Source: a virus
Taxonomy: Duplodnaviria; Heunggongvirae; Uroviricota; Caudoviricetes
Reading direction: 5' to 3' (one strand)
Virus record (IMG/VR): IMGVR_UViG_2740892209_000013
Length of the DNA stretch: 20,605 nucleotides
In this document: piece after piece, positions 1 to 15,744 of the stretch
Numbering within the stretch: the stretch's first letter is position 1
Layout: every line of letters begins with the position of its first letter
Notes under the pieces: model-generated
Told to the model about the DNA's origin: nothing
The model's database searches: none
The model's input: the letters and a program-made list of their open reading frames with translations, nothing else
Made by a program: the position numbers and the translations under genes

Positions 1-1284
1 CTACTTCTTCGCCTCTGCAACCACTTTGCTACCCACGCCGCGGTTATTGTATTCCCACATGCGGTTGTAGTTAGTGTCATTCAGATTGCGCTGTACTTCG
101 TCGTTATCATCAACGCTGCCGGTGTTACCCGCAAACGGACGGTTAGAGATCACCGCATCAGCCCACGGTTTGGCTGTGTTAAAACCTTCGTTGATGGCGC
201 TATCACGGATCACTACCTGACCGTTGGTATTGGCATCAACATCCAGCGAGCGGCCCAGTTGCGCCACGCCATCACCGGAAGCATTGAAACGGCTGTTTAC
301 GGCGAGGAAACCGTAGTAAATGTTGGACAGCGTAGCCGGTGCAAACACATACGCTTCTTGCTGGGTACGGGAGTTCACCACGCGGAATTCGGTGTTATCG
401 AACACCACTGCGCCGCGACCAGAAACGATATCCACATCCCCTTCAATATAGCTGTTGGTCACCAGCGTACGCGGCTGGCGATTCGTTTCCAGACGGTTCT
501 GCACACCGCTGTTGGTGACAAAGAAGGTGTTCTGACGACCGAGAATGTTGACGTTATTGATCTGCACTTTGTCGCCATCAGTACGCAGTGCCACCGCCGG
601 ATGGTTACCCGCATCTACGCTATCGCCCAGCGTGTTTTCGATGGTCAGGTTTTGCAGTTGCAGGCCATTGTTTTGTGACCAGAAGACCGCAGAGCAGAGA
701 ACACCGATACTGTCGCTGCGTTTACTCTGGCAGCTATCGTACATATACCACGCCGGTTTACCTGGCATATATTTGCCGCGCGGGTTGACGTCGTGACGCC
801 AGTCGGCAGGGCTCATGCCACCATCAAGGGAAAGCCCAATCTTCACATCAATCGGTTTTTCACCTGTACCGTACAGAGTAATTCCACCCGGAGCGGCAGG
901 GACATACACCGTTCCCTGATACTCACCAGGCATCACGGCAATATACTGGCGCTTGTTGGTACGCTTGATAATTGCCGCATCTACCGCCGCCTGAATCGTG
1001 GTATGCGTTACACCTTGAGTACCCGCCGGGCCGACAACAAAGTCAGGTTGCGCAGGCAGGGTAATCGGGGAAGGATTCCACGCTGCCGCACCTGGTGTCA
1101 GGGATGCAAAATAGTGTTGAGCATCGAAATTCTGCGCTTCTTTTGCCGACAGAATCGGGCGAGAAGAGGTACCAGGCGCGGTTTGATCAGAAGGACGTTG
1201 ATCGGGCGGTGTTGAGCTACAGGCGGTCAGCGTCACGCCAAAAGCCAATGCCAGCGCCAGACGGGAAACTGAAAATGTGTTCAC
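1..1284 (-). CDS. ybhC: YbhC, pectinesterase-family outer-membrane lipoprotein (acyl-CoA thioesterase); host gene flanking att-lambda
   Basis: 427-aa ORF with stop at 1-3; N-terminus MNTFSVSRLALALAFGVTLTACSS (lipoprotein signal) matches recalled E. coli YbhC; sits immediately outside the att core. Confidence 0.9.
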   Translation of the reverse strand: MNTFSVSRLALALAFGVTLTACSSTPPDQRPSDQTAPGTSSRPILSAKEAQNFDAQHYFASLTPGAAAWNPSPITLPAQPDFVVGPAGTQGVTHTTIQAAVDAAIIKRTNKRQYIAVMPGEYQGTVYVPAAPGGITLYGTGEKPIDVKIGLSLDGGMSPADWRHDVNPRGKYMPGKPAWYMYDSCQSKRSDSIGVLCSAVFWSQNNGLQLQNLTIENTLGDSVDAGNHPAVALRTDGDKVQINNVNILGRQNTFFVTNSGVQNRLETNRQPRTLVTNSYIEGDVDIVSGRGAVVFDNTEFRVVNSRTQQEAYVFAPATLSNIYYGFLAVNSRFNASGDGVAQLGRSLDVDANTNGQVVIRDSAINEGFNTAKPWADAVISNRPFAGNTGSVDDNDEVQRNLNDTNYNRMWEYNNRGVGSKVVAEAKK

Positions 1285-1330: not shown

Positions 1331-1418
1331 GCTTTTTTATACTAAGTTGGCATTATAAAAAAACATTGCTTATCAATTTGTTGCAACGAACAGGTCACTA
1401 TCAGTCAAAATAAAATCA
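1331..1418. other. attL: attL (B-O-P'): lambda att core GCTTTTTTATACTAA at 1331-1345 followed by the P' arm with Int arm-type sites
   Basis: Exact 15-bp lambda common core; downstream sequence ...gttggcattataaaaaaacattgcttatcaatttgttgcaacgaacaggtcactatcagtcaaaataaaatcattatttg... matches recalled lambda attP P' arm; int follows directly. Confidence 0.9.
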
Positions 1419-2489
1419 TTATTTGATTTCAATTTTGTCCCACTCCCTGCCTCTGTCATCACGATACTGTGATGCCATGGTGTCCGACTTATGCCCGAGA
1501 AGATGTTGAGCAAACTTATCGCTTATCTGCTTCTCATAGAGTCTTGCAGACAAACTGCGCAACTCGTGAAAGGTAGGCGGATCCCCTTCGAAGGAAAGAC
1601 CTGATGCTTTTCGTGCGCGCATAAAATACCTTGATACTGTGCCGGATGAAAGCGGTTCACGACGAGTAGATGCAATTATGGTTTCTCCGCCAAGAATCTC
1701 TTTGCATTTATCAAGTGTTTCCTTCATTGATATCCCGAGAGCATCAACATGCAATGTTGTAGGGATGGCAATTTTTACGCCTGTTTTGCTTTGTTCGACA
1801 TAAAGATATCCATCTACGATATCAGACCACTTCATTTCGCATAAATCACCAACTCGCTGCCCGGTAACAACAGCCAGTTCCATTGCAAGTCTGAGCCAAC
1901 ATGGTGATGATTCTGCTGCTTGATAAATTTTCAGGTATTCGTCAGCCGTAAGTCTTGATCTCCTTACCTCTGATTTTGCTGCGCGAGTGGCAGCGACCGG
2001 GTTTGTTGTTATATGGCCTTCAGCTATTGCCTCTCGGAATGCATCGCTCAGTGTTGATCTGATTAACTTGGCTGACGCCGCCTTGCCCTCGTCTATGTAT
2101 CCATTGAGCATTGCCGCAATTTCTTTTGTGGTGATGTCTTCAAGTGGAGCATCAGGCAGCCCCCTCCTTATTGCTTTAATTTTGCTCATGTAATTTATGA
2201 GTGTCTTCTGCTTGATTCCTCTGCTGGCGAGGATTTTTTCGTAGCGATCAAGCCATGAATGTAACGTAACAGAATTATCACTGTTGATTCTCGCTGTCAG
2301 AGGCTTGTGTTTGTGTCCTGAAAATAACTCAATATTGGCCTGTATTGCTTCAGTGATTGCTATCCTCCTGTCTCGGCCTAAACCAAACTCTTTACCCGTC
2401 CTTGGGTCCCTGTAGCAGTAATATCCATTGTTTCTTATATAAAGGTTAGGGGGTAAATCCCGGCGCTCATGACTTCGCCTTCTTCCCAT
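1419..2489 (-). CDS. int: Lambda-type integrase (tyrosine recombinase)
   Basis: 356-aa ORF, MGRRRSHERRDLPPNLYIRNNGYYCYRDPRTGKEFGLGRDRR..., same length and near-identical to recalled lambda Int; adjacent to att. Confidence 0.97.
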   Translation of the reverse strand: MGRRRSHERRDLPPNLYIRNNGYYCYRDPRTGKEFGLGRDRRIAITEAIQANIELFSGHKHKPLTARINSDNSVTLHSWLDRYEKILASRGIKQKTLINYMSKIKAIRRGLPDAPLEDITTKEIAAMLNGYIDEGKAASAKLIRSTLSDAFREAIAEGHITTNPVAATRAAKSEVRRSRLTADEYLKIYQAAESSPCWLRLAMELAVVTGQRVGDLCEMKWSDIVDGYLYVEQSKTGVKIAIPTTLHVDALGISMKETLDKCKEILGGETIIASTRREPLSSGTVSRYFMRARKASGLSFEGDPPTFHELRSLSARLYEKQISDKFAQHLLGHKSDTMASQYRDDRGREWDKIEIK

Positions 2490-2685
2490 TTCTGATCCTC
2501 TTCAAAAGGCTACCTGTTACTGGTCGATTTAAGTCAACCTTTACCGCTGATTCGTGGAACAGATACTCTCTTCCATCCTTAACCGGAGGAGGGAATATCC
2601 TGCATTCGCGCACCCATCGACGAACTGTTTCAAGGCTTCTTGGGCGTCGCTGGCGTGCGTTCCACTCCTGAAGTGTCAAGTACAT
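2467..2685 (-). CDS. xis: Excisionase
   Basis: 72 aa, MYLTLQEWNARQRRPRSLETVRRWVRECRIFPPPVKDGREYLFHESAVKVDLNRP..., matches lambda Xis; 3' end overlaps int start as in lambda. Confidence 0.95.
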   Translation of the reverse strand: MYLTLQEWNARQRRPRSLETVRRWVRECRIFPPPVKDGREYLFHESAVKVDLNRPVTGSLLKRIRNGKKAKS

Positions 2686-2708
2686 CGCAAAGTCTCCGCA
2701 ATTACACG

Positions 2709-2733
2709 CAAGAAAAAGCCGCCATCAGGCGGC
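2709..2733 (-). terminator. Intrinsic terminator-like hairpin (GCCGCC-TGAT-GGCGGC then T-rich run on the minus strand) at the 3' end of orf55
   Basis: Perfect 6-bp GC stem and TTTTTCTT on the minus strand, read directly from the sequence. Confidence 0.4.
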
Positions 2734-2892
2734 TTGGTGTTCTTTCAGTTCTTCAATTCGAATATTGGTTATGTCTGCATGTGCTATCTGCGCCCATATC
2801 ATCCAGTGGTCATAGCAGTCATTGATGTTCTCTGCTTCGATAACTCTGTTGAATGGTTCTCCATTCCATTCACCTGTGACTCGGAAGTGCAT
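2725..2892 (-). CDS. Small conserved lambda early-left protein (orf55-like), function unknown
   Basis: Own translation: MHFRVTGEWNGEPFNRVIEAENINDCYDHWMIWAQIAHADITNIRIEELKEHQAA (55 aa); below the 60-aa cutoff of the ORF track; matches the recalled lambda ORF between xis and ea8.5. Confidence 0.65.
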   Translation of the reverse strand: MHFRVTGEWNGEPFNRVIEAENINDCYDHWMIWAQIAHADITNIRIEELKEHQAA

Positions 2893-3134
2893 TTATCATC
2901 TCCATAAAACAAAACCCGCCGTAGCGAGTTCAGATAAAAGAAATCCTCGTCAGTGCGAGGATGCTGTTCATTGCTGCTATACACTTTTTTGCTCTCAACG
3001 TAAGCGGTAGCTCATTCTGTTGGGTTGGTGCAGTTGCTTTTAGGAAATGCTATTTACCCCTTAAACGTCGGCTGAAAGAGCTAAAATCCATGCAAAAAAT
3101 TTACGCAATTTTGTGTATTATTGTGCAGTAAGTA

Positions 3135-3737
3135 ATGAGCTATTTTCTGCGCAAAAAATGGATGGTAAATTTGTCCGGGGCAGGAAAAATTTTATGGACG
3201 CTAAACATGAAAAAAGATTCGTATCCTTATTTGATTTGCATGACAGTTTCAGGCCTGATCTTTATTTTCCTTTTCTTCTGGTGGCGGGCAGATATTTACA
3301 GGGTCACGTTTCTTAATCAGAGTATATCCCACTATTACATTCTGTTTAGCATGGGAATAGCTTTTCTGTTATCTCTGTTTTGGGTTAAGAAGGGGATAGT
3401 AAAACAAAGCGGCTGGAAGAGTCTGTCAGCATACCTTAAGGTTTATGCAGGGATGTGCATATTTGCTGGATTTTTTCTGATTATACCCCTTACAACACTA
3501 ACTTATTTTTTGCCTGGAGAGACATCGTCTTATGTTGCACCGTATCGGTATACTTCCGGTAGTTCAAAAAGTTGTTCTGGAGCTGAGGTGGATGACCCCG
3601 ATCTACATGAGAATATTCGCATTTGCTATCCGTATGGCAATTATGAGTACGATAATATTATCTATGTTGAAAAGAAAATTAATACATTAGGTGCGGTAGT
3701 AACATATGCACAGACCGCGCGTGATGATACTGAATGA
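3135..3737 (+). CDS. Hypothetical membrane protein (about 3 predicted TM segments plus C-terminal soluble domain), non-lambda cargo replacing ea8.5/ea22; start uncertain (3135, 3162 or 3207)
   Basis: 200-aa ORF on the strand opposite the pL operon; hydrophobic stretches LICMTVSGLIFIFLFFWW, YYILFSMGIAFLLSLFWV, GMCIFAGFFLIIPLTTLTYFL; AT-rich; flanked by lambda homology that resumes at 3945. Confidence 0.6.
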   Translation: MSYFLRKKWMVNLSGAGKILWTLNMKKDSYPYLICMTVSGLIFIFLFFWWRADIYRVTFLNQSISHYYILFSMGIAFLLSLFWVKKGIVKQSGWKSLSAYLKVYAGMCIFAGFFLIIPLTTLTYFLPGETSSYVAPYRYTSGSSKSCSGAEVDDPDLHENIRICYPYGNYEYDNIIYVEKKINTLGAVVTYAQTARDDTE

Positions 3738-3771
3738 GATAGTATATAGCGGGCAAGTTTTAGTTAATTTA

Positions 3772-3800
3772 TCGAGGTAATATAATTTACCTCGACTCGT
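3772..3800 (+). terminator. Hairpin (TCGAGGTAA-tataat-TTACCTCGA) downstream of the membrane-protein gene, possible terminator
   Basis: 9-bp perfect inverted repeat 35 nt after the stop codon; following T-run is weak. Confidence 0.3.
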
Positions 3801-3947
3801 TTATTCTGGTATTAATATTTCGCTTTACGATCGATTTTTATCTGATGATATCATGCGGTTTTCATATACTGACTTACTGTCTTTTCTCCGTTAGCGATTT
3901 TCTCCTGCTCAGCGATGATTTTATCTTTGGCTTCTAGTTAATTTCGC

Positions 3948-4169
3948 TCACTTCGAACCTCTCTGTTTACTGATAAGTTCCAGATCCTCCTGGCAACTTG
4001 CACAAGTCCGACAACCCTGAACGGCCAGGCGTCTTCGCTCATCTATGGGATCGCCACACTCACAACAATGAGTGGCAGATATAGCCTGGTGGTTCAGGCG
4101 GCGCATTTTTATTGCTGTGTTGCGCTGTAATTCTTCAATTTCTGATGCTGAATCAATGATGTCTGCCAT
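3948..4169 (-). CDS. TraR/DksA-family C4 zinc-finger protein (lambda orf73-like)
   Basis: 73 aa with CxxC...CxxC (CCECGDPIDERRRLAVQGCRTCASC); stop overlaps the GTG of a 5-codon ea22 start remnant (GTGA); matches the recalled lambda early-left small ORF. Confidence 0.7.
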   Translation of the reverse strand: MADIIDSASEIEELQRNTAIKMRRLNHQAISATHCCECGDPIDERRRLAVQGCRTCASCQEDLELISKQRGSK

Positions 4170-4267
4170 CTTCCATTAATCCCTGAATTGTTGGTTAATA
4201 CGCTTGAGGGTGAATGCGAACAATAAAAAAGGAGCCTGTAGCTCCCTGATGATTTTGCTTTTCATGC

Positions 4268-4549
4268 TCACCGTTCCTTAAAGACGCCGTTTAACATGCC
4301 GATCGCCAGGCTTAAATGAGTCGGTGTGAATCCCATCAGCGTTACCGTTTCGCGGTGCTTCTTCAGTACGCTACGGCAAATGTCATCGACGTTTTTATCC
4401 GGAAACTGCTGTCTGGCTTTTTTGATTTCAGAATTAGCCTGACGGGCAATACTGCGAAGGGCGTTTTCTTGCTGAGGTGTCATTGAACAAGTCCCATGTC
4501 GGCAAGCATAAGCACACAGAATATGAAGCCCGCTGCCAGAAAAATGCAT
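4268..4549 (-). CDS. Small lambda early-left protein of unknown function (orf61 region homolog); alternative start at 4483 gives 71 aa
   Basis: ORF in conserved lambda-like sequence between the TraR-like gene and orf63; start not resolvable from sequence. Confidence 0.45.
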   Translation of the reverse strand: MHFSGSGLHILCAYACRHGTCSMTPQQENALRSIARQANSEIKKARQQFPDKNVDDICRSVLKKHRETVTLMGFTPTHLSLAIGMLNGVFKER

Positions 4550-4559
4550 TCAGTGGTTG

Positions 4560-4751
4560 TCATACCAGGTCTCTCTCATCTGCTTCTGCTTTCGCCACCA
4601 TCATTTCCAGCTTTTGCGAAAGGGATGTGGCTAACGTATGAAATTCTTCGTCTGTTTCTACTGGTATTGGCACAAACCTGACTCCAATTTGAGCAAGGCT
4701 ATGTGCCATCTCAATACTCGTTCTTAACTCAACAGGAGATGCTTTGTGCAT
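4560..4751 (-). CDS. Lambda orf63-like small protein
   Basis: 63-aa [66 protein letters not shown] in the lambda position upstream of orf60a and exo. Confidence 0.6.
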   Translation of the reverse strand: MHKASPVELRTSIEMAHSLAQIGVRFVPIPVETDEEFHTLATSLSQKLEMMVAKAEADERDLV

Positions 4752-4906
4752 ATCGCCTCCCGTTTATTATTTATCTCCTCAGCCAGCCGCTGGGCTTTCA
4801 GCGGATTTCGGATAACAGAAAGGCCGGGAAATACCCAGCCTCGCTTCGTAACGGAGTAGACGAAAGTGATCGTGCCTACGCGGATATTATCGTGAGGATG
4901 CTTCAT
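4724..4906 (-). CDS. Lambda orf60a-like small protein
   Basis: 60 aa from [24 protein letters not shown]...; stop overlaps exo start region as in lambda. Confidence 0.6.
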
Positions 4907-5583
4907 CGCCATTGCTCCCCAAATACAAAACCAATTTCAGCCAGTGCCTCGTCCATTTTTTCGATGAACTCCGGCACCATCTCGTCAAAACCCGCCATGT
5001 ACTTTTCATCCCGCTCAACCACGACATAATGCAGGCCTTCACGCTTCATACGCGGGTCATAGTTGGCAAAGTACCAGGCATCTTTTCGCGTCACCCACAT
5101 GCTGTACTGCACCTGGGCCATGTAAGCCGACTTTATGGCCTCGAAACCACCGAGCCTGAACTTCATGAAATCCCGGGAGGTAAACGGGCATTTCAGCTCA
5201 AGGCCGTTGCCGTCACTGCATAAACCATCGGGAGAGCAGGCGGTGCGCATACTTTCGTCGCGATAGATGATCGGGGATTCAGTAACATTCACGCCGGAAG
5301 TGAATTCAAACAGGGTTCTGGCGTCGTTCTCGTACTGTTTTCCCCAGGCCAGCGCCTTAGCATTAACTTCCGGAGCCACACCGGTGCAAACCTCAGCCAG
5401 CAGGGTGTGGAAGTAGGACATTTTCATGTCAGGCCACTTCTTTCCTGAGCGGGGCTTTGCTATCACGTTGTGAACTTCTGAAGCGGTGATGACGCCGAGC
5501 CGTAATTTGTGCCATGCATCATCCCCCTGTTCGACAGCTCTCACGTCGATCCCGGTACGCTGCAGGATAATGTCCGGTGTCAT
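4903..5583 (-). CDS. exo: Lambda exonuclease (Red-alpha), 5'-3' dsDNA exonuclease
   Basis: 226 aa, [65 protein letters not shown]..., matches lambda Exo; overlaps bet stop. Confidence 0.97.
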
Positions 5584-6365
5584 GCTGCCACCTTCTGCTC
5601 AGTGGCTTTCTGTTTCAGGAATCCAAGAGCTTTCACTGCTTCGGCCTGTGTCAGTTCTGACGATGCGCGAATGTCGCGGCGAAATATCTGGGAACAGAGC
5701 GGCAATAAGTCGTCATCCCATGTTTTATCCAGGGCGATTAGCAGAGTGTTAATCTCCTGCATGGTTTCATCGTTAACCGGAGTGATGTCGCGTTCCGGCT
5801 GGCGTTCTGCAGTGTATGCAGTATTTTCGACAATGCGCTCGGCTTCATCCTTGTCATAGATACCAGCAAATCCGAAGGCCAGACGGGCACACTGAATCAT
5901 AGCTTTATGCCGTAACATCCGTTTAGGATGCGACTGCCACGGCCCCGTGATTTCTCTGCCTTCGCGGGTTTTGAATGGTTCGCGGCGGCATTCATCCATC
6001 CATTCGGTAACGCAGATCGGATGATTACGGTCCTTGCGGTAAATCCGGCATGTACAGGATTCATTGTCCTGCTCAAAGTCCATGCCATCAAACTGCTGGT
6101 TTTCATTGATGATGCGGGACCAGCCATCAACGCCCACCACCGGAACGATGCCGTTCTGCTTATCAGGGAAGGCGTAAATTTCTTTCGTCCACGGATTAAG
6201 GCCGTACTGGTTGGCGACGATCAACAATGCGATGAACTGCGCATCGCTGGCATCGCCTTTAAATGCCGTCTGGCGAAGAGTGGTGATCAGTTCCTGTGGG
6301 TCGACAGAATCCATGCCGACACGTTCAGCCAGCTTCCCTGCCAGCGTTGCGAGTGCTGTACTCAT
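5580..6365 (-). CDS. bet: Red-beta single-strand annealing recombinase
   Basis: 261 aa, [82 protein letters not shown]..., matches lambda Bet. Confidence 0.97.
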
Positions 6366-6370
6366 CCGTT

Positions 6371-6787
6371 TTATACCTCTGAATCAATATCAACCTGATG
6401 GTGAGCAATGGTTTCAACCATGTACCGGATGTGTTCTGCCATGCGCTCCTGAAACTCAACATCGTCATCAAACGCACGGGTAATGGCTTTTTTGCTGGCC
6501 CCGTGGCGTTGCAAATGACCGATGCATAGCGATTCAAACAGGTGCTGGGGCAGGCCTTTTTCCATGTCGTCTGCCAGTTCTGCCTCTTTCTCTTCACGGG
6601 CTATCTGCTGGTAGTGACGCGCCCAGCTCTGAGCCTCAAGACGATCCTGAATGTAATAAGCGTTCATGGCCGAACTCCTGAAATAGCTGTGAAAATATCG
6701 CCCGCGAAATGCCGGGCTGATTAGGAAAACAGGAAAGGGGGTTAGTGAATGCTTTTGCTTGATCTCAGTTTCAGTATTAATATCCAT
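6371..6787 (-). CDS. gam: Gam, RecBCD inhibitor
   Basis: 138 aa, [61 protein letters not shown]..., matches lambda Gam. Confidence 0.97.
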
Positions 6788-6885
6788 TTTTTATAAGCGT
6801 CGACGGCCTCACGAAACATCTTTTCATCGCCAATAAAAGTGGCGATAGTGAATTTAGTCTGGATAGCCATAATTGTTTGATCCAT
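6742..6885 (-). CDS. kil: Kil, host cell-division (FtsZ) inhibitor
   Basis: 47 aa [47 protein letters not shown] inside the longer ORF-track frame 6742..7011; matches lambda Kil. Confidence 0.85.
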
Positions 6886-7018
6886 TTTTTGGGACTCCTG
6901 GCTGATTAAGTATGTCGATAAGGCGTTTCCATCCGTCACGTAATTTACGGGTGATTCGTTCAAGTAAAGATTCGGAAGGGCAGCCAGTAACAGGCCACCC
7001 TGCAATGGCATATTGCAT
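6854..7018 (-). CDS. cIII: CIII, inhibitor of FtsH-mediated CII degradation
   Basis: Own translation, below ORF-track cutoff: [54 protein letters not shown] (54 aa), near-identical to lambda CIII. Confidence 0.85.
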   Translation of the reverse strand: MQYAIAGWPVTGCPSESLLERITRKLRDGWKRLIDILNQPGVPKNGSNNYGYPD

Positions 7019-7090
7019 GGTGTGCTCCTTATTTATACATAACGAAAAACGCCTCGAGTGAAGCGTAATTGGTATGCGGTAACGCCGCGC

Positions 7091-7459
7091 TCAGGCGGCC
7101 TTGATAGTCATATCATCTGAATCAAATATTCCTGATGTATCGATATCGGTAATTCTTATTCCTTCACTACCATCCATTGGAGGCCATCCTTCCTGACCAT
7201 TTCCATCATTCCAGTCGAACTCACACACAACACCATATGCATTTAAGTCGCTTGAAATTGCTATAAGCAGAGCATGTTGCGCCAGCATGATTAATACAGC
7301 ATTTAATACAGAGCCGTGTTTATTGAGTCGGTATTCAGAGTCTGACCAGAAATTATTAATCTGGTGAAGTTTTTCCTCTGTCATTACGTCATGGTCGATT
7401 TCAATTTCTATTGATGCTTTCCAGTCGTAATCAATGATGTATTTTTTGATGTTTGACAT
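7091..7459 (-). CDS. ea10: Ea10 (lambda Ssb-like early protein)
   Basis: 122 aa, MSNIKKYIIDYDWKASIEIEIDHDVMTEEKLHQINNFWSDSEYRLNKHGSVLNAVLIMLAQ..., matches lambda Ea10. Confidence 0.85.
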   Translation of the reverse strand: MSNIKKYIIDYDWKASIEIEIDHDVMTEEKLHQINNFWSDSEYRLNKHGSVLNAVLIMLAQHALLIAISSDLNAYGVVCEFDWNDGNGQEGWPPMDGSEGIRITDIDTSGIFDSDDMTIKAA

Positions 7460-7477
7460 CTGTTCATATCCTCACAG

Positions 7478-7505
7478 ATAAAAAATCGCCCTCATCTTGG
7501 AGGGC
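7478..7505 (-). terminator. Intrinsic terminator-like hairpin (GCCCTC-n6-GAGGGC then TTTTTTAT on the minus strand) upstream of ea10 in the pL operon
   Basis: Stem-loop plus T-tract read on the minus strand; same element present in recalled lambda sequence. Confidence 0.4.
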
Positions 7506-7647
7506 AAAGAAGATTTCCAATAATCAGAACAAGTCGGCTCCTGTTTAGTTACGAGCGACATTGCTCCGTGTATTCACTCGTTGGAATGAATACACAGCGC
7601 TGTGTTTATTCTGTTGTTTGCGTGAAAATGAAATCCGCCTGAGCGGG

Positions 7648-8517
7648 TTATGACCACTTTTTGTTTGGGTTTCGTTGGTGAGCGTGGTTTACAGGATTAT
7701 TTGATATACCCCATAACTCTGACTCGCTTATCTCTACACGAGAGAAAGACCTGCTTTCTTTCAGTTCTTTTATAAACCTAGAACCTAAGATGACATCTAT
7801 TGTACCAGAAAGTTCTTGTAAAAGATCTTTGTTTTTTCTGAGGAAGAAAATATCTTCTTTATATTTAATTTTTACATAGAATTTATTCTGTATTTTTAAT
7901 ATATCAAAGCATGGCAGATATCTATATCCCTCATATTTTCGCCACTGCTTAACAATTATAACATCTTTTTCATTTACTGCATTAATCAGCCCAAGACAAA
8001 GTACAGGTATGAATATTCTATTGTCTGCCGAAAGCGTACAATTATCACCACCAGGCAAATATGTATAAATCATGTCGGAATTTTTATACGCATCAACGAA
8101 TGCACGTAAGAAGCGTACATATTTTTGCCATCCGTTTATACCGAATTTACCATATAAGTATTCTTTATTTGTTAGAAGAAAACTATTTGTATCAGGATCC
8201 TTATCTACAGACCTGTCGATAAGATCTCCAACTACGTTTACAAAGTCAAAGACAGAGTTTAATAAGAACAATTGTCTTTCAGTAGGGCGAATTTCAATTA
8301 TGTAGCCAGGATGAAGACGATATTGCATCTGCTTACGAAGTATACCGAACGCTTGGGTCCGAGCATCTGAAAGCAACTTCTTGTCGCCATCGCCGTGAGC
8401 ATTGTTTCTAATAAAACTGATATAATTTGCTAATTTTTCAGCCTCTTTTTTGTGTTTTTTTCGCTCTGATGCTGAGTCTATTGGTTTTGGTATGGACTTG
8501 TAATCAATCTTCTTCAT
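7648..8517 (-). CDS. Hypothetical 289-aa soluble protein, non-lambda cargo in the ral/sieB slot immediately downstream of N; no recognisable family
   Basis: 293-aa ORF (8529) or 289 aa from the second ATG at 8517, which has a GAGGT Shine-Dalgarno 6 nt upstream; first ATG overlaps the ancestral N stop (ATGA); very AT-rich relative to flanks; lambda homology breaks at about 7620 and 8530. Confidence 0.7.
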   Translation of the reverse strand: MKKIDYKSIPKPIDSASERKKHKKEAEKLANYISFIRNNAHGDGDKKLLSDARTQAFGILRKQMQYRLHPGYIIEIRPTERQLFLLNSVFDFVNVVGDLIDRSVDKDPDTNSFLLTNKEYLYGKFGINGWQKYVRFLRAFVDAYKNSDMIYTYLPGGDNCTLSADNRIFIPVLCLGLINAVNEKDVIIVKQWRKYEGYRYLPCFDILKIQNKFYVKIKYKEDIFFLRKNKDLLQELSGTIDVILGSRFIKELKESRSFSRVEISESELWGISNNPVNHAHQRNPNKKWS

Positions 8518-8525
8518 TACGTACC

Positions 8526-8849
8526 TCATGCCAATGGAATGGATTCCCCTTTAACCTTTTGTCTTCCTTGACAAGTTATACCGAACTCACCTGGCTTGCT
8601 ATACCAAACTCGATGATTCTTGCGCTCAATACGTTACAGGTTGCTTTCAATCTGTTCGTGGTATTCAGCCAGCACCGTAAGGTCTATCGGATTCAGTGCG
8701 CTTTCTACTCGTGATTTCGGTTTGCGATTCAGCGAGAGAATAGGGCGGTTAACTGGTTTAGCGCTTACCCCAACCAACAGGGGATTTGCTGCTTTCCATT
8801 GAGCCTGTTTCTCTGCGCGACGTTCGCGGCGGCGTGTTTGTGCATCCAT
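8526..8849 (-). pseudogene. N: Antiterminator N with in-frame ochre stop (TAA at 8634-8636, codon 72; lambda has CAA Gln); translated product would be 71 aa
   Basis: MDAQTRRRERRAEKQAQWKAANPLLVGVSAKPVNRPILSLNRKPKSRVESALNPIDLTVLAEYHEQIESNL then stop; the same frame continues RIERKNHRVWYSKPGEFGITCQGRQKVKGESIPLA, recognisably the N C-terminal region, to a TGA at 8526-8528. Confidence 0.8.
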
Positions 8850-9006
8850 CTGGATTCTCCTGTCAGTTAGCTTTGGTTGTGTGTGGGAGTCGTAGTCCTG
8901 AACGAAAACACCCCGCAATGGCACATTGGCAGCTAATCCGGATTCGCACTTCCGGCCAATGCTTCGTTTCGTATCACACACACCAAAGCCTTCTGCTTTG
9001 AATGCT

Positions 9007-9037
9007 GCCCTTCTTCAGGGCTTAATTTTTAAGAGCC
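9007..9037 (-). promoter_or_regulatory. nutL: nutL (boxA-like GGCTCTTAAAAATTAA and boxB hairpin GCCCTGAAGAAGGGC)
   Basis: boxB is identical to recalled lambda nutL boxB; boxA has one mismatch; lies between pL and N. Confidence 0.75.
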
Positions 9038-9082
9038 TCACCTTCAATGGTGGTCAGTGCGTCCTGCTGATGGCTTAAAATT

Positions 9083-9150
9083 ACAAGGAAGATTGTATGT
9101 TGTAAACAAGAAATATTGTAAAAAGGGGCGTGAAAAACAAACTCCATTGT
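9083..9150 (-). promoter_or_regulatory. Phage-434-type OL operators and pL: ACAAGGAAGATTGT (9083-9096), ACAAGAAATATTGT (9106-9119), ACAAACTCCATTGT (9137-9150)
   Basis: Three 14-bp ACAA-N6-TTGT sites, the 434 repressor operator architecture, read directly from the sequence; lambda homology ends at about 9070. Confidence 0.8.
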
Positions 9151-9200
9151 TTTTAAACGGAAAATAGTTTGTTTTTTTGTTATCGAGATTGAGGTGGGGA

Positions 9201-10553
<1,353 letters not shown>

Positions 10554-10561
10554 GACATTCC

Positions 10562-10593
10562 CGCTCTTACACATCCCAGCCCTGAAAAAGGGC
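10562..10593 (+). promoter_or_regulatory. nutR: nutR (boxA CGCTCTTACACA, boxB GCCCTGAAAAAGGGC)
   Basis: Lambda nutR boxA/boxB read directly, just downstream of cro. Confidence 0.8.
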
Positions 10594-10672
10594 ATCAAAA
10601 TAAACCACACCTATGGTGTATGCATTTATTTGCATACATTCAATCAATTGTTATCTAAGGAAATACTTACAT

Positions 10673-10966
10673 ATGGTTCGTGCAAACAAACGCAACGAGG
10701 CTCTACGAATCGAGAGTGCGTTGCTTAACAAAATCGCAATGCTTGGAACTGAGAAGACAGCGGAAGCTGTGGGAGTTGATAAGTCGCAGATCAGCAGGTG
10801 GAAGAGGGATTGGATTCCAAAGTTCTCAATGCTGCTTGCTGTTCTTGAATGGGGTGTCGTCGACGACGACATGGCTCGATTGGCACGACAAGTTGCTTCG
10901 ATTCTCACCAATAAAAAACGCCCGGCGGCAACCGAGCGTTCTGAACAAATCCAGATGGAATTCTGA
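10673..10966 (+). CDS. cII: CII transcriptional activator
   Basis: 97 aa MVRANKRNEALRIESALLNKIAMLGTEKTAEAVGVDKSQISRWKRDWIPKFSMLLAVLEWGVVDDDMARLARQVASILTNKKRPAATERSEQIQMEF, near-identical to lambda CII. Confidence 0.95.
   Translation: MVRANKRNEALRIESALLNKIAMLGTEKTAEAVGVDKSQISRWKRDWIPKFSMLLAVLEWGVVDDDMARLARQVASILTNKKRPAATERSEQIQMEF
10682..10695 (-). promoter_or_regulatory. pRE -35 region / CII binding site (TTGC-N6-TTGC on the minus strand)
   Basis: Reverse complement TTGCGTTTGTTTGC inside the cII 5' coding region, as in lambda pRE. Confidence 0.6.
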
Positions 10967-10988
10967 GGTTATTACTGGAACTATCAAC
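10910..10988 (-). ncRNA. oop: oop antisense RNA (about 77 nt, antisense to the cII 3' end)
   Basis: Plus strand aataaaaaacgcccggcggcaaccgagcgttctgaacaaatccagatgga...ctatcaac matches the complement of recalled lambda oop RNA, including its GC hairpin and U-tract terminator on the minus strand. Confidence 0.65.
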
Positions 10989-10998
10989 AGGAGTCATT

Positions 10999-11898
10999 AT
11001 GACAAATACAGCAAAAATACTCAACTTCGGCAGAGGTAACTTTGCCGGACAGGAGCGTAATGTGGCAGATCTCGATGATGGTTACGCCAGACTATCAAAT
11101 ATGCTGCTTGAGGCTTATTCAGGCGCAGATCTGACCAAGCGACAGTTTAAAGTGCTGCTTGCCATTCTGCGTAAAACCTATGGGTGGAATAAACCAATGG
11201 ACAGAATCACCGATTCTCAACTTAGCGAGATTACAAAGTTACCTGTCAAACGGTGCAATGAAGCCAAGTTAGAACTCGTCAGAATGAATATTATCAAGCA
11301 GCAAGGCGGCATGTTTGGACCAAATAAAAACATCTCAGAATGGTGTATCCCTCAAAACGAGGGAAAATCCCCTAAAACGAGGGATAAAACATCCCTCAAA
11401 TTGGGGGATTGCTATCCCTCAAAACAGGGGAACACAAAAGACACTAATACAAAAGAAAATAGAAAAGATTATTCGTCAGAGAATTCTGGCGAATCCTCTG
11501 ACCAGCCAGAAAACGACCTTTCTGTGGTGAAACCTGATGCTGCAATTCAGAGCGGCAGCAAATGGGGGACAGCAGAAGACCTGACCGCCGCAGAGTGGAT
11601 GTTTGACATGGTGAAGACTATCGCGCCATCAGCCAGAAAACCGAATTTTGCAGGGTGGGCTAACGATATCCGCCTGATGCGTGAACGTGACGGACGTAAC
11701 CACCGCGATATGTGTGTGCTGTTCCGCTGGGCCTGCCAGGACAACTTCTGGTCCGGTAATGTGCTGAGCCCGGCCAAACTCCGCGACAAGTGGACCCAGC
11801 TCGAAATCAACCGTAACAAGCAACAGGCAGTCGTGACAGCCAGCAAACCAAAACTCGACCTGACAAACACAGACTGGATTTACGGGGTGGATTTATGA
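10999..11898 (+). CDS. O: Replication initiator O
   Basis: 299 aa MTNTAKILNFGRGNFAGQERNVADLDDGYARLSNMLLEAYSGADLTKRQFKVLLAILRKTYGWNKPMDRITDSQLSEITKLP..., matches lambda O. Confidence 0.97.
   Translation: MTNTAKILNFGRGNFAGQERNVADLDDGYARLSNMLLEAYSGADLTKRQFKVLLAILRKTYGWNKPMDRITDSQLSEITKLPVKRCNEAKLELVRMNIIKQQGGMFGPNKNISEWCIPQNEGKSPKTRDKTSLKLGDCYPSKQGNTKDTNTKENRKDYSSENSGESSDQPENDLSVVKPDAAIQSGSKWGTAEDLTAAEWMFDMVKTIAPSARKPNFAGWANDIRLMRERDGRNHRDMCVLFRWACQDNFWSGNVLSPAKLRDKWTQLEINRNKQQAVVTASKPKLDLTNTDWIYGVDL
11345..11475. repeat. ori-lambda: four directly repeated O-binding iterons (ATCCCTCAAAACGAGGGA-type) plus adjacent AT-rich segment, inside the O gene
   Basis: Four tandem about 19-bp repeats each with an internal inverted repeat (tccctc...gaggga), followed by an A+T-rich run. 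Confidence 0.85.
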
Positions 11899-12596
11899 AA
11901 AACATCGCCGCACAGATGGTTAACTTTGACCGTGAGCAGATGCGTCGGATCGCCAACAACATGCCGGAACAGTACGACGAAAAGCCTCAGGTACAGCAGG
12001 TAGCGCAGATCATCAACGGTGTGTTCAGCCAGTTACTGGCAACTTTCCCGGCGAGCCTGGCTAACCGTGACCAGAACGAACTGAACGAAATCCGCCGCCA
12101 GTGGGTTCTGGCTTTCCGGGAAAACGGGATCACCACAATGGAACAGGTTAACGCAGGAATGCGCGTAGCCCGTCGGCAGAATCGACCATTTCTGCCATCA
12201 CCCGGGCAGTTTGTTGCATGGTGCCGGGAAGAAGCATCCGTTATCGCCGGACAGCCAAACGTCAGCGAGCTGGTTGATATGGTTTACGAGTATTGCCGGA
12301 AGCGAGGCCTGTATCCGGATGCGGAGTCTTATCCGTGGAAATCAAACGCGCACTACTGGCTGGTTACCAACCTGTATCAGAACATGCGGGCCAATGCGCT
12401 TACTGATGCGGAATTACGGCGCAAGGCTGCCGATGAACTGTCCTGTATGACCGCACGAATTAACCGTGGTGAGGCTATACCTGAACCAGTAAAACAACTT
12501 CCTGTCATGGGCGGTAGACCTCTAAATCGTGCACAGGCTCTGGCGAAGATCGCAGAAATCAAAGCTAAGTTTGGGCTGAAAGGAGCAAGTGTATGA
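11895..12596 (+). CDS. P: Replication protein P (DnaB helicase loader)
   Basis: 233 aa MKNIAAQMVNFDREQMRRIANNMPEQYDEKPQVQQVAQIINGVFSQLLATF..., matches lambda P; ATGA overlap with O stop. Confidence 0.97.
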   Translation: MKNIAAQMVNFDREQMRRIANNMPEQYDEKPQVQQVAQIINGVFSQLLATFPASLANRDQNELNEIRRQWVLAFRENGITTMEQVNAGMRVARRQNRPFLPSPGQFVAWCREEASVIAGQPNVSELVDMVYEYCRKRGLYPDAESYPWKSNAHYWLVTNLYQNMRANALTDAELRRKAADELSCMTARINRGEAIPEPVKQLPVMGGRPLNRAQALAKIAEIKAKFGLKGASV

Positions 12597-12883
12597 CGGG
12601 CAAAGAGGCAATTATTCATTACCTGGGGACGCATAATAGCTTCTGTGCGCCGGACGTTGCCGCGTTAACAGGCGCAACAGTAACCGGCATAAATCAGGCC
12701 GCGGCTAAAATGGCACGGGCAGGTCTTCTGGTTATCGAAGGTAAGGTCTGGCGAACGGTGTATTACCGGTTCGCTACTAGGGAAGAACGGGAAGGAAAGA
12801 TGAGCACGAACCTGATTTTTAAGGAGTGTCGCCAGAGTGCCGCGATGAAACGGGTATTGGCGGTATATGGAGTTAAAAGATGA
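12593..12883 (+). CDS. ren: Ren (Rex exclusion resistance)
   Basis: 96 aa MTGKEAIIHYLGTHNSFCAPDVAALTGATVTGINQAAAKMARAGLLVIEGKVWRTVYYRF..., matches lambda Ren. Confidence 0.9.
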   Translation: MTGKEAIIHYLGTHNSFCAPDVAALTGATVTGINQAAAKMARAGLLVIEGKVWRTVYYRFATREEREGKMSTNLIFKECRQSAAMKRVLAVYGVKR

Positions 12884-12907
12884 CCATCTACATCACTGAG
12901 CTAATAA

Positions 12908-12940
12908 CAGGCCTGCTGGTAATCGCAGGCCTTTTTATTT
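12908..12940 (+). terminator. tR2 intrinsic terminator
   Basis: Hairpin AGGCCTGC-tggtaatc-GCAGGCCT followed by TTTTTATTT between ren and ninB, as in lambda. Confidence 0.7.
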
Positions 12941-12956
12941 GGGGGAGAGGGAAGTC

Positions 12957-13397
12957 ATGAAAAAACTAACCTTTGAAATTCGATCTCCAGCACATCAGCA
13001 AAACGCTATTCACGCAGTACAGCAAATCCTTCCAGACCCAACCAAACCAATCGTAGTAACCATTCAGGAACGCAACCGCAGCTTAGACCAAAACAGGAAG
13101 CTATGGGCCTGCTTAGGTGACGTCTCTCGTCAGGTTGAATGGCATGGTCGCTGGCTGGATGCAGAAAGCTGGAAGTGTGTGTTTACCGCAGCATTAAAGC
13201 AGCAGGATGTTGTTCCTAACCTTGCCGGGAATGGCTTTGTGGTAATAGGCCAGCCAACCAGCAGGATGCGTGTAAGCGAATTTGCGGAGCTATTAGAGCT
13301 TATACAGGCATTCGGTACAGAGCGTGGCGTTAAGTGGTCAGACGAAGCGCGACTGGCTCTCGAATGGAAAGCGCGATGGGGAGATCGGGCTGCATGA
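12957..13397 (+). CDS. ninB: NinB (Orf family recombination mediator)
   Basis: 146 aa from MKKLTFEIRSPAHQQNAIHAVQQILPDPTKPIVVTIQERNRSLDQNRKLWACLGDVSRQVEWHGRW..., matches lambda NinB. Confidence 0.9.
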   Translation: MKKLTFEIRSPAHQQNAIHAVQQILPDPTKPIVVTIQERNRSLDQNRKLWACLGDVSRQVEWHGRWLDAESWKCVFTAALKQQDVVPNLAGNGFVVIGQPTSRMRVSEFAELLELIQAFGTERGVKWSDEARLALEWKARWGDRAA

Positions 13398-13921: not shown

Positions 13922-14100
13922 GGCGACAACGACGAAGTTTCACCGACATCATCTGCGAAAACTGCAAATACCTTCCAACGAAACGCTCCAGAAATAAACG
14001 CAAGCCAATCCCAAAAGAATCTGACGTAAAAACCTTCAACTACACGGCTCACCTGTGGGATATCCGGTGGCTAAGACATCGTGCGAGGAATACAAGGTGA
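13918..14100 (+). CDS. ninE: NinE
   Basis: 60 aa [60 protein letters not shown], matches lambda NinE. Confidence 0.85.
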
Positions 14101-15619: not shown

Positions 15620-15744
15620 CTGAGTCATTTTATTATTTTATTGCAACTTTTAATCTTTTATAGTGCGAAATAAATGGAGCTGGCATTCATTTCGCACTTT
15701 ATGTTTTTGTTGGACTTATGTTATTTTGATTGAATTCAATTCAG

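What the first reader, a model, noticed from the sequence alone, without database searches (positions are those of the whole stretch)
3135..3737. Opposite-strand membrane protein cassette replacing lambda ea8.5/ea22
Lambda-like sequence is continuous through xis and orf55 up to about 2955 and resumes at 3945, where only five codons of the ea22 start remain (GTGAGCGAAATTAAC then stop). The roughly 1-kb replacement is AT-rich and carries one gene on the plus strand, opposite to pL transcription. It encodes a protein with about 3 N-terminal TM segments and a Cys/Tyr-rich C-terminal domain, and is followed by a 9-bp perfect-stem hairpin. This is an independently transcribed cargo gene of unknown function.
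Basis: partly seen in the sequence, partly recalled or inferred. Interest (0 to 1): 0.6.

Follow-up and report, generated by a model that had tools for sequence, protein, structure and literature searches.

The report
Phage 434 membrane-protein moron gene
A self-contained cargo gene of the classic phage 434 encodes a small inner-membrane protein of unknown function; the same cargo sits in the anti-phage hotspot of P2-like prophages, so it most likely protects lysogens against other phages, but this has never been tested.

Summary
The window is a phage 434 prophage (99.8% identity). Lambda homology stops at 2962 and resumes at 3936. The 973 bp between are AT-rich (37.9% GC) and carry one plus-strand gene, followed by a 9-bp hairpin.

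- The real start is almost certainly ATG 3207 (176 aa), not 3135.
- The ea22 remnant is five codons plus an out-of-frame central fragment.

The protein has three transmembrane helices and a roughly 70-residue beta-barrel domain. Its only family-wide invariant residues are two cysteines (C-x16-C), which implies a periplasmic disulfide. The gene is under strong purifying selection. The family is small, confined to Enterobacteriaceae, and absent from Pfam, NCBIfam, PADLOC and the PDB.

New finding: homologues 58-78% identical occupy the gpQ-gpA anti-phage hotspot of P2-like prophages, again next to a 3'-truncated ea22-like gene. The 434 cassette still carries about 59 bp of P2-type backbone, so the cargo moved between the two phage types.

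GenBank already annotates the gene as "putative membrane protein", and the P2 copy is catalogued but was not among the systems reported as tested. No function is shown. My best guess is superinfection exclusion at the envelope (about 0.4). It is a new member of a known kind, of moderate interest.

The parts
2943..2962 (-). Terminator-like hairpin for leftward (pL) transcription. It is the last lambda-homologous element, and the left junction of the replacement lies at 2962/2963.
   Evidence: Scan hit: 7-bp stem then TTCTTTTATC. The fold gives -10.5 kcal/mol. GenBank M60848 annotates 't-L4' here. Lambda homology ends at 2962.
2963..3069 (.). 107 bp of junction DNA of unknown origin.
   Evidence: It matches neither lambda nor the P2-type cassette loci.
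3070..3128 (+). Remnant of P2-like phage backbone, from the portal-proximal edge of the gpQ-gpA hotspot. It contains the TTGTG repeats that the 434 record annotates as a 'CII binding site' (3111-3124).
   Evidence: It aligns with P2-like prophages both with (L034) and without (L035) the membrane gene. It matches phages Chuche and Citrobacter phiSM at 77%, about 390-450 bp downstream of their portal genes.
3143..3171 (+). Candidate promoter inside the mobile block: TTTTCT (3143-3148), TG (3163-3164), TAAATT (3166-3171). This is inferred, not mapped.
   Evidence: TGnTAAATT and TTTTCT are conserved in 434 and in the closer E. coli and Salmonella P2-type cassettes. The most divergent Salmonella type keeps a related TGATAATTT at the same place. 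Synonymous sites are saturated between these cassettes. The element lies within the 78 nt of cassette-specific DNA upstream of the ATG in L034. The consensus scan did not call it.
3135..3206 (+). The 24-codon N-terminal extension of the RefSeq and first-reader ORF. It is probably not translated.
   Evidence: In six other lineages there is no in-frame start upstream of the conserved ATG. Homologues start at MKK. AF2 pLDDT is 47-56 over this stretch.
3207..3737 (+). Coding sequence of 176 aa plus stop. TM1 is about nt 3219-3287, TM2 about 3324-3389, TM3 about 3426-3515, and the C-terminal beta domain about 3516-3734.
   Evidence: ORF. Conserved start. Nonsynonymous divergence pN is 0.18-0.45 while synonymous sites are saturated, with dN/dS 0.08-0.16 where computable. 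Hydropathy. AF2 models with pLDDT 80.8 and 90.4. The two Cys are the only invariant residues across 27 diverse members.
3772..3795 (+). Hairpin downstream of the gene, with a 9-bp perfect stem and a 6-nt loop. It is a candidate terminator.
   Evidence: -12.9 kcal/mol, z -3.45. The hairpin is retained in weaker form in the E. coli P2-type cassette, with one A-T to G-C compensatory pair. The T tract is weak.
3796..3844 (+). Right end of the block shared with the P2-type cassette.
   Evidence: blastn gives L034 4394-5166 = window 3070-3844 at 76% identity.
3893..3937 (-). Out-of-frame remnant of the central part of an ead/Ea22-like gene (LEAKDKIIAEQEKIA).
   Evidence: tblastn matches residues 84-98 of the P2-type Ea22-like protein, 73% over 15 aa. 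The DNA match is 3894-3916. About 235 bp are missing relative to L034/L035.
3934..3951 (-). ea22 start remnant: GTG AGC GAA ATT AAC TAG.

Best explanation
What is shown.
- The gene (3207-3737, 176 aa) is a genuine cargo gene, a 'moron', of phage 434.
- It belongs to a small Enterobacteriaceae-only family of about 170-aa proteins with three transmembrane helices and a C-terminal five-stranded beta-barrel domain of about 70 residues.
- It is under purifying selection.
- The same promoter-region/gene/hairpin block also lies in the gpQ-gpA variable hotspot of P2-like prophages, convergent with a 3'-truncated ea22-like gene.
- The 434 copy retains about 59 bp of P2-type backbone and a fragment of such an ea22-like gene.

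What is inferred about its history. The block moved from a P2-like hotspot into the lambdoid ea22 locus. Ea22 homology served on one side, and an illegitimate join next to terminator tL4 on the other.

What is inferred about topology and expression.
- The N-terminus and the TM2-TM3 loop are cytoplasmic, by the positive-inside rule.
- The C-terminal domain is periplasmic and held by a disulfide between the two invariant cysteines.
- The gene is transcribed from its own weak extended -10-type promoter in the repressed prophage. It is opposed by antisense pL transcription during lytic growth.

The mechanism I commit to (not shown). The protein sits in the inner membrane of the lysogen, and its periplasmic domain interferes with genome entry of superinfecting phages. 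This would be superinfection exclusion, as with HK97 gp15 and P22 SieA.
For: Real gene:
- dN/dS is 0.08-0.16 with saturated synonymous sites.
- Homologues are 169-180 aa and share the same architecture down to 17% identity.

Moron anatomy:
- It is an insertion relative to lambda.
- GC is 37.9% against 46-50% in the flanks.
- A -10-like element is conserved within the mobile block.
- A hairpin follows the gene.

Topology:
- Three hydrophobic segments, with K/R-rich N-terminus and TM2-TM3 loop, and an acidic C-terminal domain.
- In the AF2 model a strand from the TM1-TM2 loop lies beside the C-terminal sheet.
- The only invariant residues in 27 members are the two Cys, 16 residues apart.

Hotspot link:
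- Homologues 78%, 70% and 58% identical lie between portal gpQ and replication gene gpA in E. coli and Salmonella P2-like prophages.
- That locus carries old/tin and many validated anti-phage systems (PMC9122126).
- The E. coli copy WP_000711113 is listed there as 'hypothetical'.
- In the related P4 hotspot, 6 of 8 loci of unknown function tested gave protection (bioRxiv 10.64898/2026.02.27.708500).

Shuttling:
- L034 versus L035 indel.
- P2 backbone remnant in 434.
- Ea22-like remnants.

Precedents:
- HK97 gp15 is a moron-encoded inner-membrane exclusion protein with chromosomal homologues in Enterobacteriaceae (PMC3594210).

Prevalence: the cassette is present in at least 905 of 5426 complete E. 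coli genomes.
Against: - There is no experimental or homology evidence for any function. Pfam, NCBIfam and PADLOC give nothing, and PHROGs gives only phrog_1416, of unknown function.
- The P2 hotspot also carries non-defence cargo, such as ParM/StbB and Ea22-like genes.
- For P2 proteins of unknown function, machine-learning predictions called only 15-32% antiviral.
- In the Enterobacter cloacae complex the gene is a syntenic chromosomal gene outside any prophage. In Citrobacter and Klebsiella it is an isolated chromosomal gene. This fits a general envelope role as well as it fits defence.
- The promoter is not mapped, and the consensus scan did not call it.
- The terminator has a poor T tract.
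- The direction of transfer (P2 to lambdoid) rests on a single 59-bp segment at 77% identity.
Confidence: 0.4

Rival explanations
1. It is a lysogenic-conversion factor unrelated to phage defence. In this reading the envelope protein changes host physiology, stress tolerance or host interaction, in the manner of lambda Bor or Lom. It might do so by binding a periplasmic or membrane host partner.
For: - It has the same moron anatomy as the best explanation.
- Chromosomal orthologues are vertically inherited in the Enterobacter cloacae complex, and there are isolated chromosomal copies in Citrobacter, Klebsiella, Cedecea and Pseudescherichia.
- The 434 genome carries other envelope or virulence morons, such as LpxR lipid A deacylase and an NleC-like effector (PMC9119081).
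- It is widespread in pathogenic E. coli serotypes.
Against: Three separate sequence types sit in the P2 gpQ-gpA hotspot, which is enriched for anti-phage cargo. There is no similarity to any known virulence or stress protein.
Confidence: 0.25
2. It is an orphan immunity protein. In this reading the membrane-anchored periplasmic domain neutralises a periplasm- or membrane-acting bacteriocin, or a contact-dependent or type VI toxin.
For: - The protein is small, membrane-anchored and carries a probable periplasmic disulfide domain. Colicin M immunity protein and pore-former immunity proteins have comparable layouts (my own knowledge).
- The gene is scattered as a single gene in mobile and chromosomal contexts.
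Confidence: 0.12
3. It is a membrane effector of an abortive-infection system. It would depolarise or permeabilise the membrane on infection, alone or with a partner encoded elsewhere.
For: In known systems, transmembrane proteins in P2/P4 hotspots are often thought to be suicide effectors (PMC9122126). In some Salmonella loci a small HAD-like gene precedes it, an arrangement that recalls the validated 'Hydrolase + 3TM' system.
Against: - It is a lone gene in 434, in the E. coli P2 locus and in chromosomes.
- It has no homology to the validated 3TM effector or its hydrolase.
- A conserved folded periplasmic domain with a disulfide points to binding rather than pore formation.
Confidence: 0.08
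4. It is a phage-cycle gene switched on by CII during establishment of lysogeny. The TTGT-N6-TTGT site that the 434 record annotates at 3111-3124 would be the CII site.
For: The motif matches the loose consensus ttgyN6ttgy that the annotators used.
Against: - The same repeat belongs to P2-like backbone DNA in phages without the cassette.
- I expect about six chance matches to this pattern per 48-kb genome (my own calculation).
- I found no suitably spaced -10 element by inspecting the sequence.
- The gene also lives in chromosomes without any phage.
Confidence: 0.05
5. It is a non-functional remnant or a spurious ORF.
For: No function is known. Truncated copies exist in decaying P2 prophages.
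Against: - It is under strong purifying selection across genera.
- Architecture and cysteines are conserved.
- The ORF is intact in hundreds of genomes.
- The AF2 models are confident.
Confidence: 0.02

Closest known systems
HK97 gp15 moron (superinfection exclusion; Cumby et al. 2012, summarised in PMC3594210)
   Same: Both are single-gene morons in a lambdoid phage. Both encode a small inner-membrane protein. Both have homologues restricted to Enterobacteriaceae, many of them outside prophages (compare).
   Different: There is no detectable sequence relationship, since only phrog_1416 matched. gp15 is a short YebO-like protein that sits in the tail operon. This protein has 3 TM helices plus a folded periplasmic domain and sits at the ea22 locus on the opposite strand. 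No exclusion has been shown for it.
P22 SieA (inner-membrane protein that blocks the ejection-protein DNA conduit; PMC10883804)
   Same: Both are prophage-expressed, multi-pass inner-membrane proteins of similar size. SieA is sufficient on its own for exclusion and comes in several very divergent types.
   Different: There is no homology. The genome location differs. The target and phenotype of the 434 protein are unknown.
Cargo of the P2-like gpQ-gpA hotspot (old, tin and other anti-phage systems; Rousset et al. 2022, PMC9122126)
   Same: Homologues 58-78% identical occupy exactly this locus. One of them, WP_000711113, is in the paper's Table S5. The 434 copy retains P2 backbone from the edge of the hotspot.
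   Different: The 434 copy lies in a lambdoid genome. The protein matches no PADLOC model, is unrelated to the validated 'Hydrolase + 3TM' system, and was not among the systems reported as tested.
Lambda bor and lom (lysogen-expressed envelope morons)
   Same: All are envelope proteins. Like this gene, bor lies on the strand opposite to the surrounding phage operon and is expressed from the prophage (my own knowledge; lom is mentioned in PMC3594210).
   Different: Bor is a lipoprotein and Lom is an outer-membrane barrel. There is no homology, and their roles are in serum resistance and adhesion.
Lambda ea8.5/ea22 (the genes replaced)
   Same: Same genome position. Remnants of an ea22 start and of an Ea22-like central segment flank the cassette.
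   Different: The strand is opposite, the protein is unrelated and the composition differs.

Membership tests
Moron (independent cargo unit in a phage genome; definition in PMC3594210) | Extra or replaced DNA relative to closely related phages | tested here: met
   973 bp replace lambda 29356-29355+1024 (that is, 29356-30379) between 97-98% identical flanks. A 712-bp indel separates sister P2-like prophages L034 and L035.
Moron (independent cargo unit in a phage genome; definition in PMC3594210) | Base composition differs from neighbouring genes | tested here: met
   37.9% GC against 45.7% and 49.8% in the flanks.
Moron (independent cargo unit in a phage genome; definition in PMC3594210) | Own promoter | tested here: inconclusive
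   A TGnTAAATT element 36-44 nt upstream of the ATG is conserved inside the mobile block in the 434 cassette and the closer P2-type cassettes. The most divergent Salmonella type has a related TGATAATTT. The consensus scan did not call it, and there is no transcript data.
Moron (independent cargo unit in a phage genome; definition in PMC3594210) | Own terminator | tested here: inconclusive
   A perfect 9-bp hairpin at -12.9 kcal/mol, z -3.45. The T tract is weak, and the hairpin is weaker in the P2-type copy.
Moron (independent cargo unit in a phage genome; definition in PMC3594210) | Expressed from the repressed prophage | not testable with these tools
   This needs 5' RACE or RNA-seq of a 434 lysogen.
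Anti-phage cargo of the P2-like gpQ-gpA hotspot (PMC9122126) | Located between portal gpQ and replication gene gpA of P2-like prophages | tested here: met
   This is true of the homologues, not of the 434 copy. WP_000711113 is listed in Table S5. The 434 copy keeps 59 bp from the hotspot edge.
Anti-phage cargo of the P2-like gpQ-gpA hotspot (PMC9122126) | Matches a known or candidate defence-system model | tested here: not met
   PADLOC gives 0 families. It is unrelated to the validated Hydrolase + 3TM system.
Anti-phage cargo of the P2-like gpQ-gpA hotspot (PMC9122126) | Confers resistance to phage when cloned | not testable with these tools
   No experiment was found in the literature searches.
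Inner-membrane superinfection-exclusion proteins (P22 SieA, HK97 gp15) | Sequence homology to a described exclusion protein | tested here: not met
   PHROGs gives only phrog_1416, of unknown function, at E 2e-50, and nothing else below E 0.6. tblastn of all phage records finds only 434, 2B8 and mEp332.
Inner-membrane superinfection-exclusion proteins (P22 SieA, HK97 gp15) | Prophage-encoded integral inner-membrane protein | tested here: met
   Prediction only: three hydrophobic helices, in a prophage context. Localisation has not been measured.
Inner-membrane superinfection-exclusion proteins (P22 SieA, HK97 gp15) | Blocks genome entry of superinfecting phage after adsorption | not testable with these tools
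   This needs plating, adsorption and K+ efflux or DNA-entry assays.
Lambda CII-activated promoters (pRE, pI, paQ type) | TTGC-N6-TTGC repeats flanking the -35 region, with a -10 about 12 nt downstream, in a phage that encodes CII | tested here: not met
   TTGT-N6-TTGT is present at 3111-3124. However, the repeat is P2-like backbone also found without the cassette, and I saw no acceptable -10 at the required spacing when reading the sequence.
Any curated protein family (Pfam, NCBIfam) or solved structure | Significant profile or fold match | tested here: not met

The most novel reading that the evidence does not exclude
The family is a new single-gene, envelope-acting anti-phage (superinfection-exclusion) protein. 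It is a 3-TM anchor carrying a disulfide-stabilised periplasmic beta-barrel that blocks genome entry. It travels as a promoter-gene-terminator unit between the P2 gpQ-gpA hotspot and the lambdoid ea22 locus by recombination within ea22-like genes, and it is present in about one in six complete E. coli genomes.
Probability: 0.35. Interest if true: 0.6.

Novelty: new member of a known kind. Interest (0 to 1): 0.4.

Why it matters
Phage 434 is one of the founding model phages, yet this gene has no known role. The cassette is present in at least 905 of 5426 complete E. coli genomes, including many Shiga-toxin and enteropathogenic serotypes.

If it excludes other phages, it would add a widespread, Pfam-less, single-gene envelope defence to the catalogue. 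That would bear on phage-therapy host range.

The anatomy also gives a concrete, sequence-resolved example of cargo moving between the P2 defence hotspot and a lambdoid phage. A shared ea22-like gene appears to have served as the recombination handle. Recent work says the underlying recombination process still needs to be elucidated.

Tried and rejected
Homology and fold searches that gave nothing:
- Pfam, NCBIfam and PADLOC scans of the protein and of 27 family members found nothing.
- PHROGs found only a 90-aa family of unknown function that covers the C-terminal half.
- The PDB profile search found nothing.
- Foldseek against BFVD found nothing below E 0.01.
- The AlphaFold database library was not available.

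Family breadth:
- An exhaustive profile search of 1.84 billion representatives returned only 61 hits. The full-length ones share the same architecture. One spurious hit was a 3074-aa repeat protein.
- The species-genome scan gave only 10 loci.

Literature searches found no study of the gene: by accession, phage 434, mEp332, 434 lysogen exclusion, and exo-xis defence.

Ideas rejected:
- The 200-aa (ATG 3135) and 188-aa (TTG 3171) starts.
- The upstream 56-aa ORF as a partner gene, because it is not conserved.
- The CII-site reading.
- Identity with Rousset's 'Hydrolase + 3TM' system.
- Relatedness to the 'memP' membrane protein in the phiSM hotspot.
- The 112-aa and 81-aa forms as a separate short isoform. 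The truncated copy I examined lies in a decayed P2 prophage.

Full report
**1. Where we are**

Window 1331-20605 is a phage 434 prophage, 99.8% identical to OL657226 over the whole stretch. It is integrated beside ybhC (1-1284, minus strand). The neighbours of the finding are all on the minus strand:
- int, 1419-2489
- xis, 2467-2685
- orf55, 2725-2892
- the TraR/DksA-like orf73, 3948-4169

The 1061 bp around the finding are 100% identical to phage 434. They are 98.8-99.9% identical to phages 2B8 and mEp332. At least 80% of that query is present in 905 of 5426 complete E. coli genomes.

GenBank annotates the gene as 'putative membrane protein' (CPT_434_36, 188 aa from TTG 3171). RefSeq calls it 'hypothetical protein' (WP_000120063.1, 200 aa from ATG 3135). 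The 1990 fragment M60848 had guessed an ORF in another frame, 'ORF-22+'. The genome announcement says only that the morons of 434 differ from those of lambda (PMC9119081).

**2. Checking the observation**

- blastn against lambda gives window 1331-2962 = lambda 27724-29355 and window 3936-5200 = lambda 30380-31645.
- So 973 bp replace the 1024 bp that hold ea8.5 and all of ea22 except 16 nt.
- The minus strand reads GTG AGC GAA ATT AAC TAG at 3951-3934.
- The cassette is 37.9% GC, against 45.7% and 49.8% for the flanks.
- The hairpin at 3772-3795 has a perfect 9-bp stem, -12.9 kcal/mol, z -3.45. The T tract after it is weak.
- The left junction (2962/2963) abuts the leftward terminator hairpin annotated tL4.

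**3. The gene and its true start**

Homologues from Salmonella, Enterobacter, Klebsiella, Cedecea and Citrobacter are 169-180 aa, and all begin at the residue aligned with M25 of the 200-aa reading. In six other lineages no in-frame start codon exists upstream of that ATG before a stop. The coding sequence is therefore 3207-3737, or 176 aa.

Between lineages synonymous sites are saturated (pS 0.69-0.88). Nonsynonymous divergence is 0.18-0.45, and dN/dS is 0.08-0.16 where it can be computed. This is a selected gene.

**4. The protein**

Hydropathy gives three segments, at aa 29-51, 64-85 and 98-127 of the 200-aa numbering. The N-terminus (MKK) and the TM2-TM3 loop are K/R-rich, and the C-terminal 73 residues are acidic.

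AlphaFold2 (pLDDT 80.8) gives three long helices and a short strand in the TM1-TM2 loop. These are followed by a five-stranded beta domain, and the domain alone models at pLDDT 90.4.

In an alignment of 27 members reaching 17% identity, the only invariant residues are two cysteines 16 residues apart. Together with the positive-inside pattern, this points to an N-in, C-out topology with a disulfide-bonded periplasmic domain. That is an inference.

'Cys-rich' is an overstatement, since the domain has 2 Cys. It is Tyr-rich, with 9 Tyr in 73 residues.

**5. What it resembles: nothing described**

- Pfam, NCBIfam and PADLOC give nothing.
- PHROGs gives only phrog_1416, of unknown function. It is a 90-aa profile covering the C-terminal half, which probably reflects truncated annotations.
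- There is no PDB sequence relative.
- BFVD finds nothing.
- An exhaustive profile search of 1.84 billion representative proteins returns only 61 hits. The full-length ones share this architecture.
- A scan of one genome per species returns 10 loci. All are Enterobacteriaceae except one evident contaminant contig.
- Every source names it 'hypothetical' or 'transmembrane protein'.

**6. Context elsewhere: the informative part**

Salmonella homologues 70% and 58% identical lie between the portal gene and the replication gene of P2-like prophages. So does an E. coli homologue 78% identical. This is the gpQ-gpA locus that holds old and tin in P2. Rousset et al. showed it to be a hotspot of anti-phage systems (PMC9122126). 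[quoted passage not shown] It is not among the validated systems in the part of Table S2 that I read.

Comparing two sister prophages is revealing:
- L035 has an intact 196-aa ead/Ea22-like gene at the hotspot.
- In L034, 712 bp carrying the membrane gene replace the 3' end of that gene, leaving a truncated pseudogene convergent with it.
- This is the same relationship to ea22 as in phage 434.

**7. Anatomy and origin of the 434 cassette**

blastn aligns L034 4394-5166 with window 3070-3844 at 76%. The first 59 bp of this block (3070-3128) lie outside the L034/L035 indel, so they are P2-type backbone. They occur in L035, which lacks the gene. They also occur at 77% identity about 390-450 bp downstream of the portal genes of phages Chuche and Citrobacter phiSM.

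To the right, window 3893-3937 on the minus strand encodes LEAKDKIIAEQEKIA. This matches residues 84-98 of the P2-type Ea22-like protein. It is out of frame with the five-codon ea22 start, and about 235 bp are missing in between.

The simplest history is as follows, and it is an inference:
- The unit of membrane gene plus truncated ea22-like gene, as seen in P2-like hotspots, recombined into a lambdoid phage.
- Ea22 homology served on the right, and an illegitimate join beside tL4 on the left.
- A further deletion then occurred inside the ea22 remnant.

This fits the report that P2 exchanges hotspot cargo with other mobile elements by recombination processes not yet understood (bioRxiv 10.64898/2026.02.27.708500).

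**8. Expression signals**

Within the cassette-specific 78 nt upstream of the ATG lie TTTTCT (3143-3148) and TGgTAAATT (3163-3171). These elements are conserved in the E. coli P2-type cassette and the closer Salmonella one. The most divergent Salmonella type keeps TGATAATTT at the same place. The upstream 101 nt are 64-65% identical between 434 and the closer Salmonella cassettes, although synonymous sites are saturated.

I read this as an extended -10-type promoter with a start near 3178. That would also exclude the 3135 and 3171 start codons. The consensus scan did not call it, and nothing has been mapped.

The 'CII binding site' annotated at 3111-3124 is part of the P2-type backbone repeat, so it is probably coincidental.

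In a lysogen pL is off. During lytic growth, N-antiterminated pL transcripts would run antisense through the gene to tL4. This is an inference from lambda biology.

**9. Other contexts**

- In the Enterobacter cloacae complex the gene is a syntenic chromosomal gene beside a GGDEF-HAMP gene, with flanks 78-95% identical across species.
- In Klebsiella and Citrobacter it is an isolated chromosomal gene.
- In Cedecea it lies next to an integrase fragment. In both Cedecea and Pseudescherichia it lies near an SBP_bac_5 solute-binding gene.
- A truncated copy I examined lies in a decayed P2 prophage with IS1.

This mix of phage and chromosomal homologues within Enterobacteriaceae parallels HK97 gp15 and its YebO relatives (PMC3594210).

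**10. Mechanism**

Shown: it is a selected, mobile, single-gene unit. It encodes a predicted 3-TM protein with a folded C-terminal domain and an invariant cysteine pair, and it recurs in an anti-phage hotspot.

Inferred: the periplasmic disulfide domain and expression from the lysogen.

Committed guess, about 0.4: superinfection exclusion at the inner membrane or periplasm, by analogy with HK97 gp15 and P22 SieA. This rests on guilt by association with the hotspot.

Rival readings:
- An envelope conversion factor unrelated to phages, 0.25
- An orphan immunity protein against periplasm-acting toxins, 0.12
- An abortive-infection membrane effector, 0.08
- A CII-controlled phage-cycle gene, 0.05
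- A dead remnant, 0.02

The validated 'Hydrolase + 3TM' system of Rousset et al. is not homologous.

**11. Verdict**

The gene is an already-annotated but functionally unknown moron. The added value here is fourfold:
- the corrected gene model
- the predicted topology and disulfide
- the definition of a small family that Pfam does not hold
- the sequence-resolved link to the P2 gpQ-gpA hotspot

It is a new member of a known kind, with interest 0.4.

Noticed in passing
window 2961-3131 (+): The 56-aa ORF annotated in phage 434 as a second 'putative membrane protein' (CPT_434_35) is probably not a gene. Its 3' third is P2-type non-coding backbone, and the rest has no counterpart in any related cassette.
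   Followed up: partly
window 3111-3128; L034 4425-4452; L035 4424-4451: A thrice-repeated TTGTGCA-like motif sits at the portal-proximal edge of the P2-like gpQ-gpA hotspot, exactly where cargo is swapped. It is conserved in E. coli, Salmonella and Citrobacter P2-like phages and was carried into phage 434. Its function is unknown. It could be a recombination or regulatory site, or part of the extended cos region.
   Followed up: partly
L034 5164-5534 and L035 4490-5080 (E. coli P2-like prophages): An ead/Ea22-like gene, a typically lambdoid accessory gene, is common cargo of the P2 hotspot. [quoted passage not shown] This gives lambdoid and P2-like phages a shared stretch of homology.
   Followed up: partly
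L005 5529-5888, L019 5472-5831 (Salmonella P2-like hotspots): A 119-aa HAD-like protein (DxDG motif; weak PHROG hits to phosphatase-type families) and an 81-aa protein precede the membrane gene on the same strand in several Salmonella loci. They are absent from 434, from the E. coli P2 locus and from L006. The arrangement recalls the validated 'Hydrolase + 3TM' system, but there is no homology.
   Followed up: partly
L024-L027, L031, L009 (Enterobacter spp.): The family has a vertically inherited chromosomal orthologue in the Enterobacter cloacae complex. It lies 17 nt downstream of a LysR-type regulator gene and is convergent with a HAMP-GGDEF gene.
   Followed up: partly
L022 (JARKOR010000073.1, 'Candidatus Nanosynbacter' MAG): A 3.5-kb contig in a Saccharibacteria metagenome bin carries a 98% identical copy of the 434-type gene. 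This is almost certainly a mis-binned E. coli prophage contig.
   Followed up: no
phrog_1416; proteins P0159 (112 aa), P0166 (81 aa): N-terminally truncated annotations of the P2-type gene are very common; the 112-aa form is seen on at least 1000 contigs. The PHROG profile covers only the C-terminal 88 residues. The one truncated copy I examined lies in a decayed prophage with IS1. The origin of the abundant 112-aa form was not resolved.
   Followed up: partly
window 15745-16704 (-): Another opposite-strand cargo gene in the same prophage is a 319-aa outer-membrane lipid A deacylase (LpxR-like). It lies between a truncated lambda-type Q fragment and the Q82-like antiterminator gene.
   Followed up: no
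window 7648-8529 (-): A 293-aa ORF lies immediately downstream of N in the pL operon. The 434 record annotates it as carrying an HK022 Nun-like C-terminal peptide, which suggests a possible transcription-termination exclusion factor.
   Followed up: no
L002 (M60848) 2550-2616 = window 3194-3260: The 1990 GenBank entry annotated 'ORF-22+' in a different reading frame from the real gene. The 2022 genome paper notes that the older fragments contain single-base errors.
   Followed up: yes
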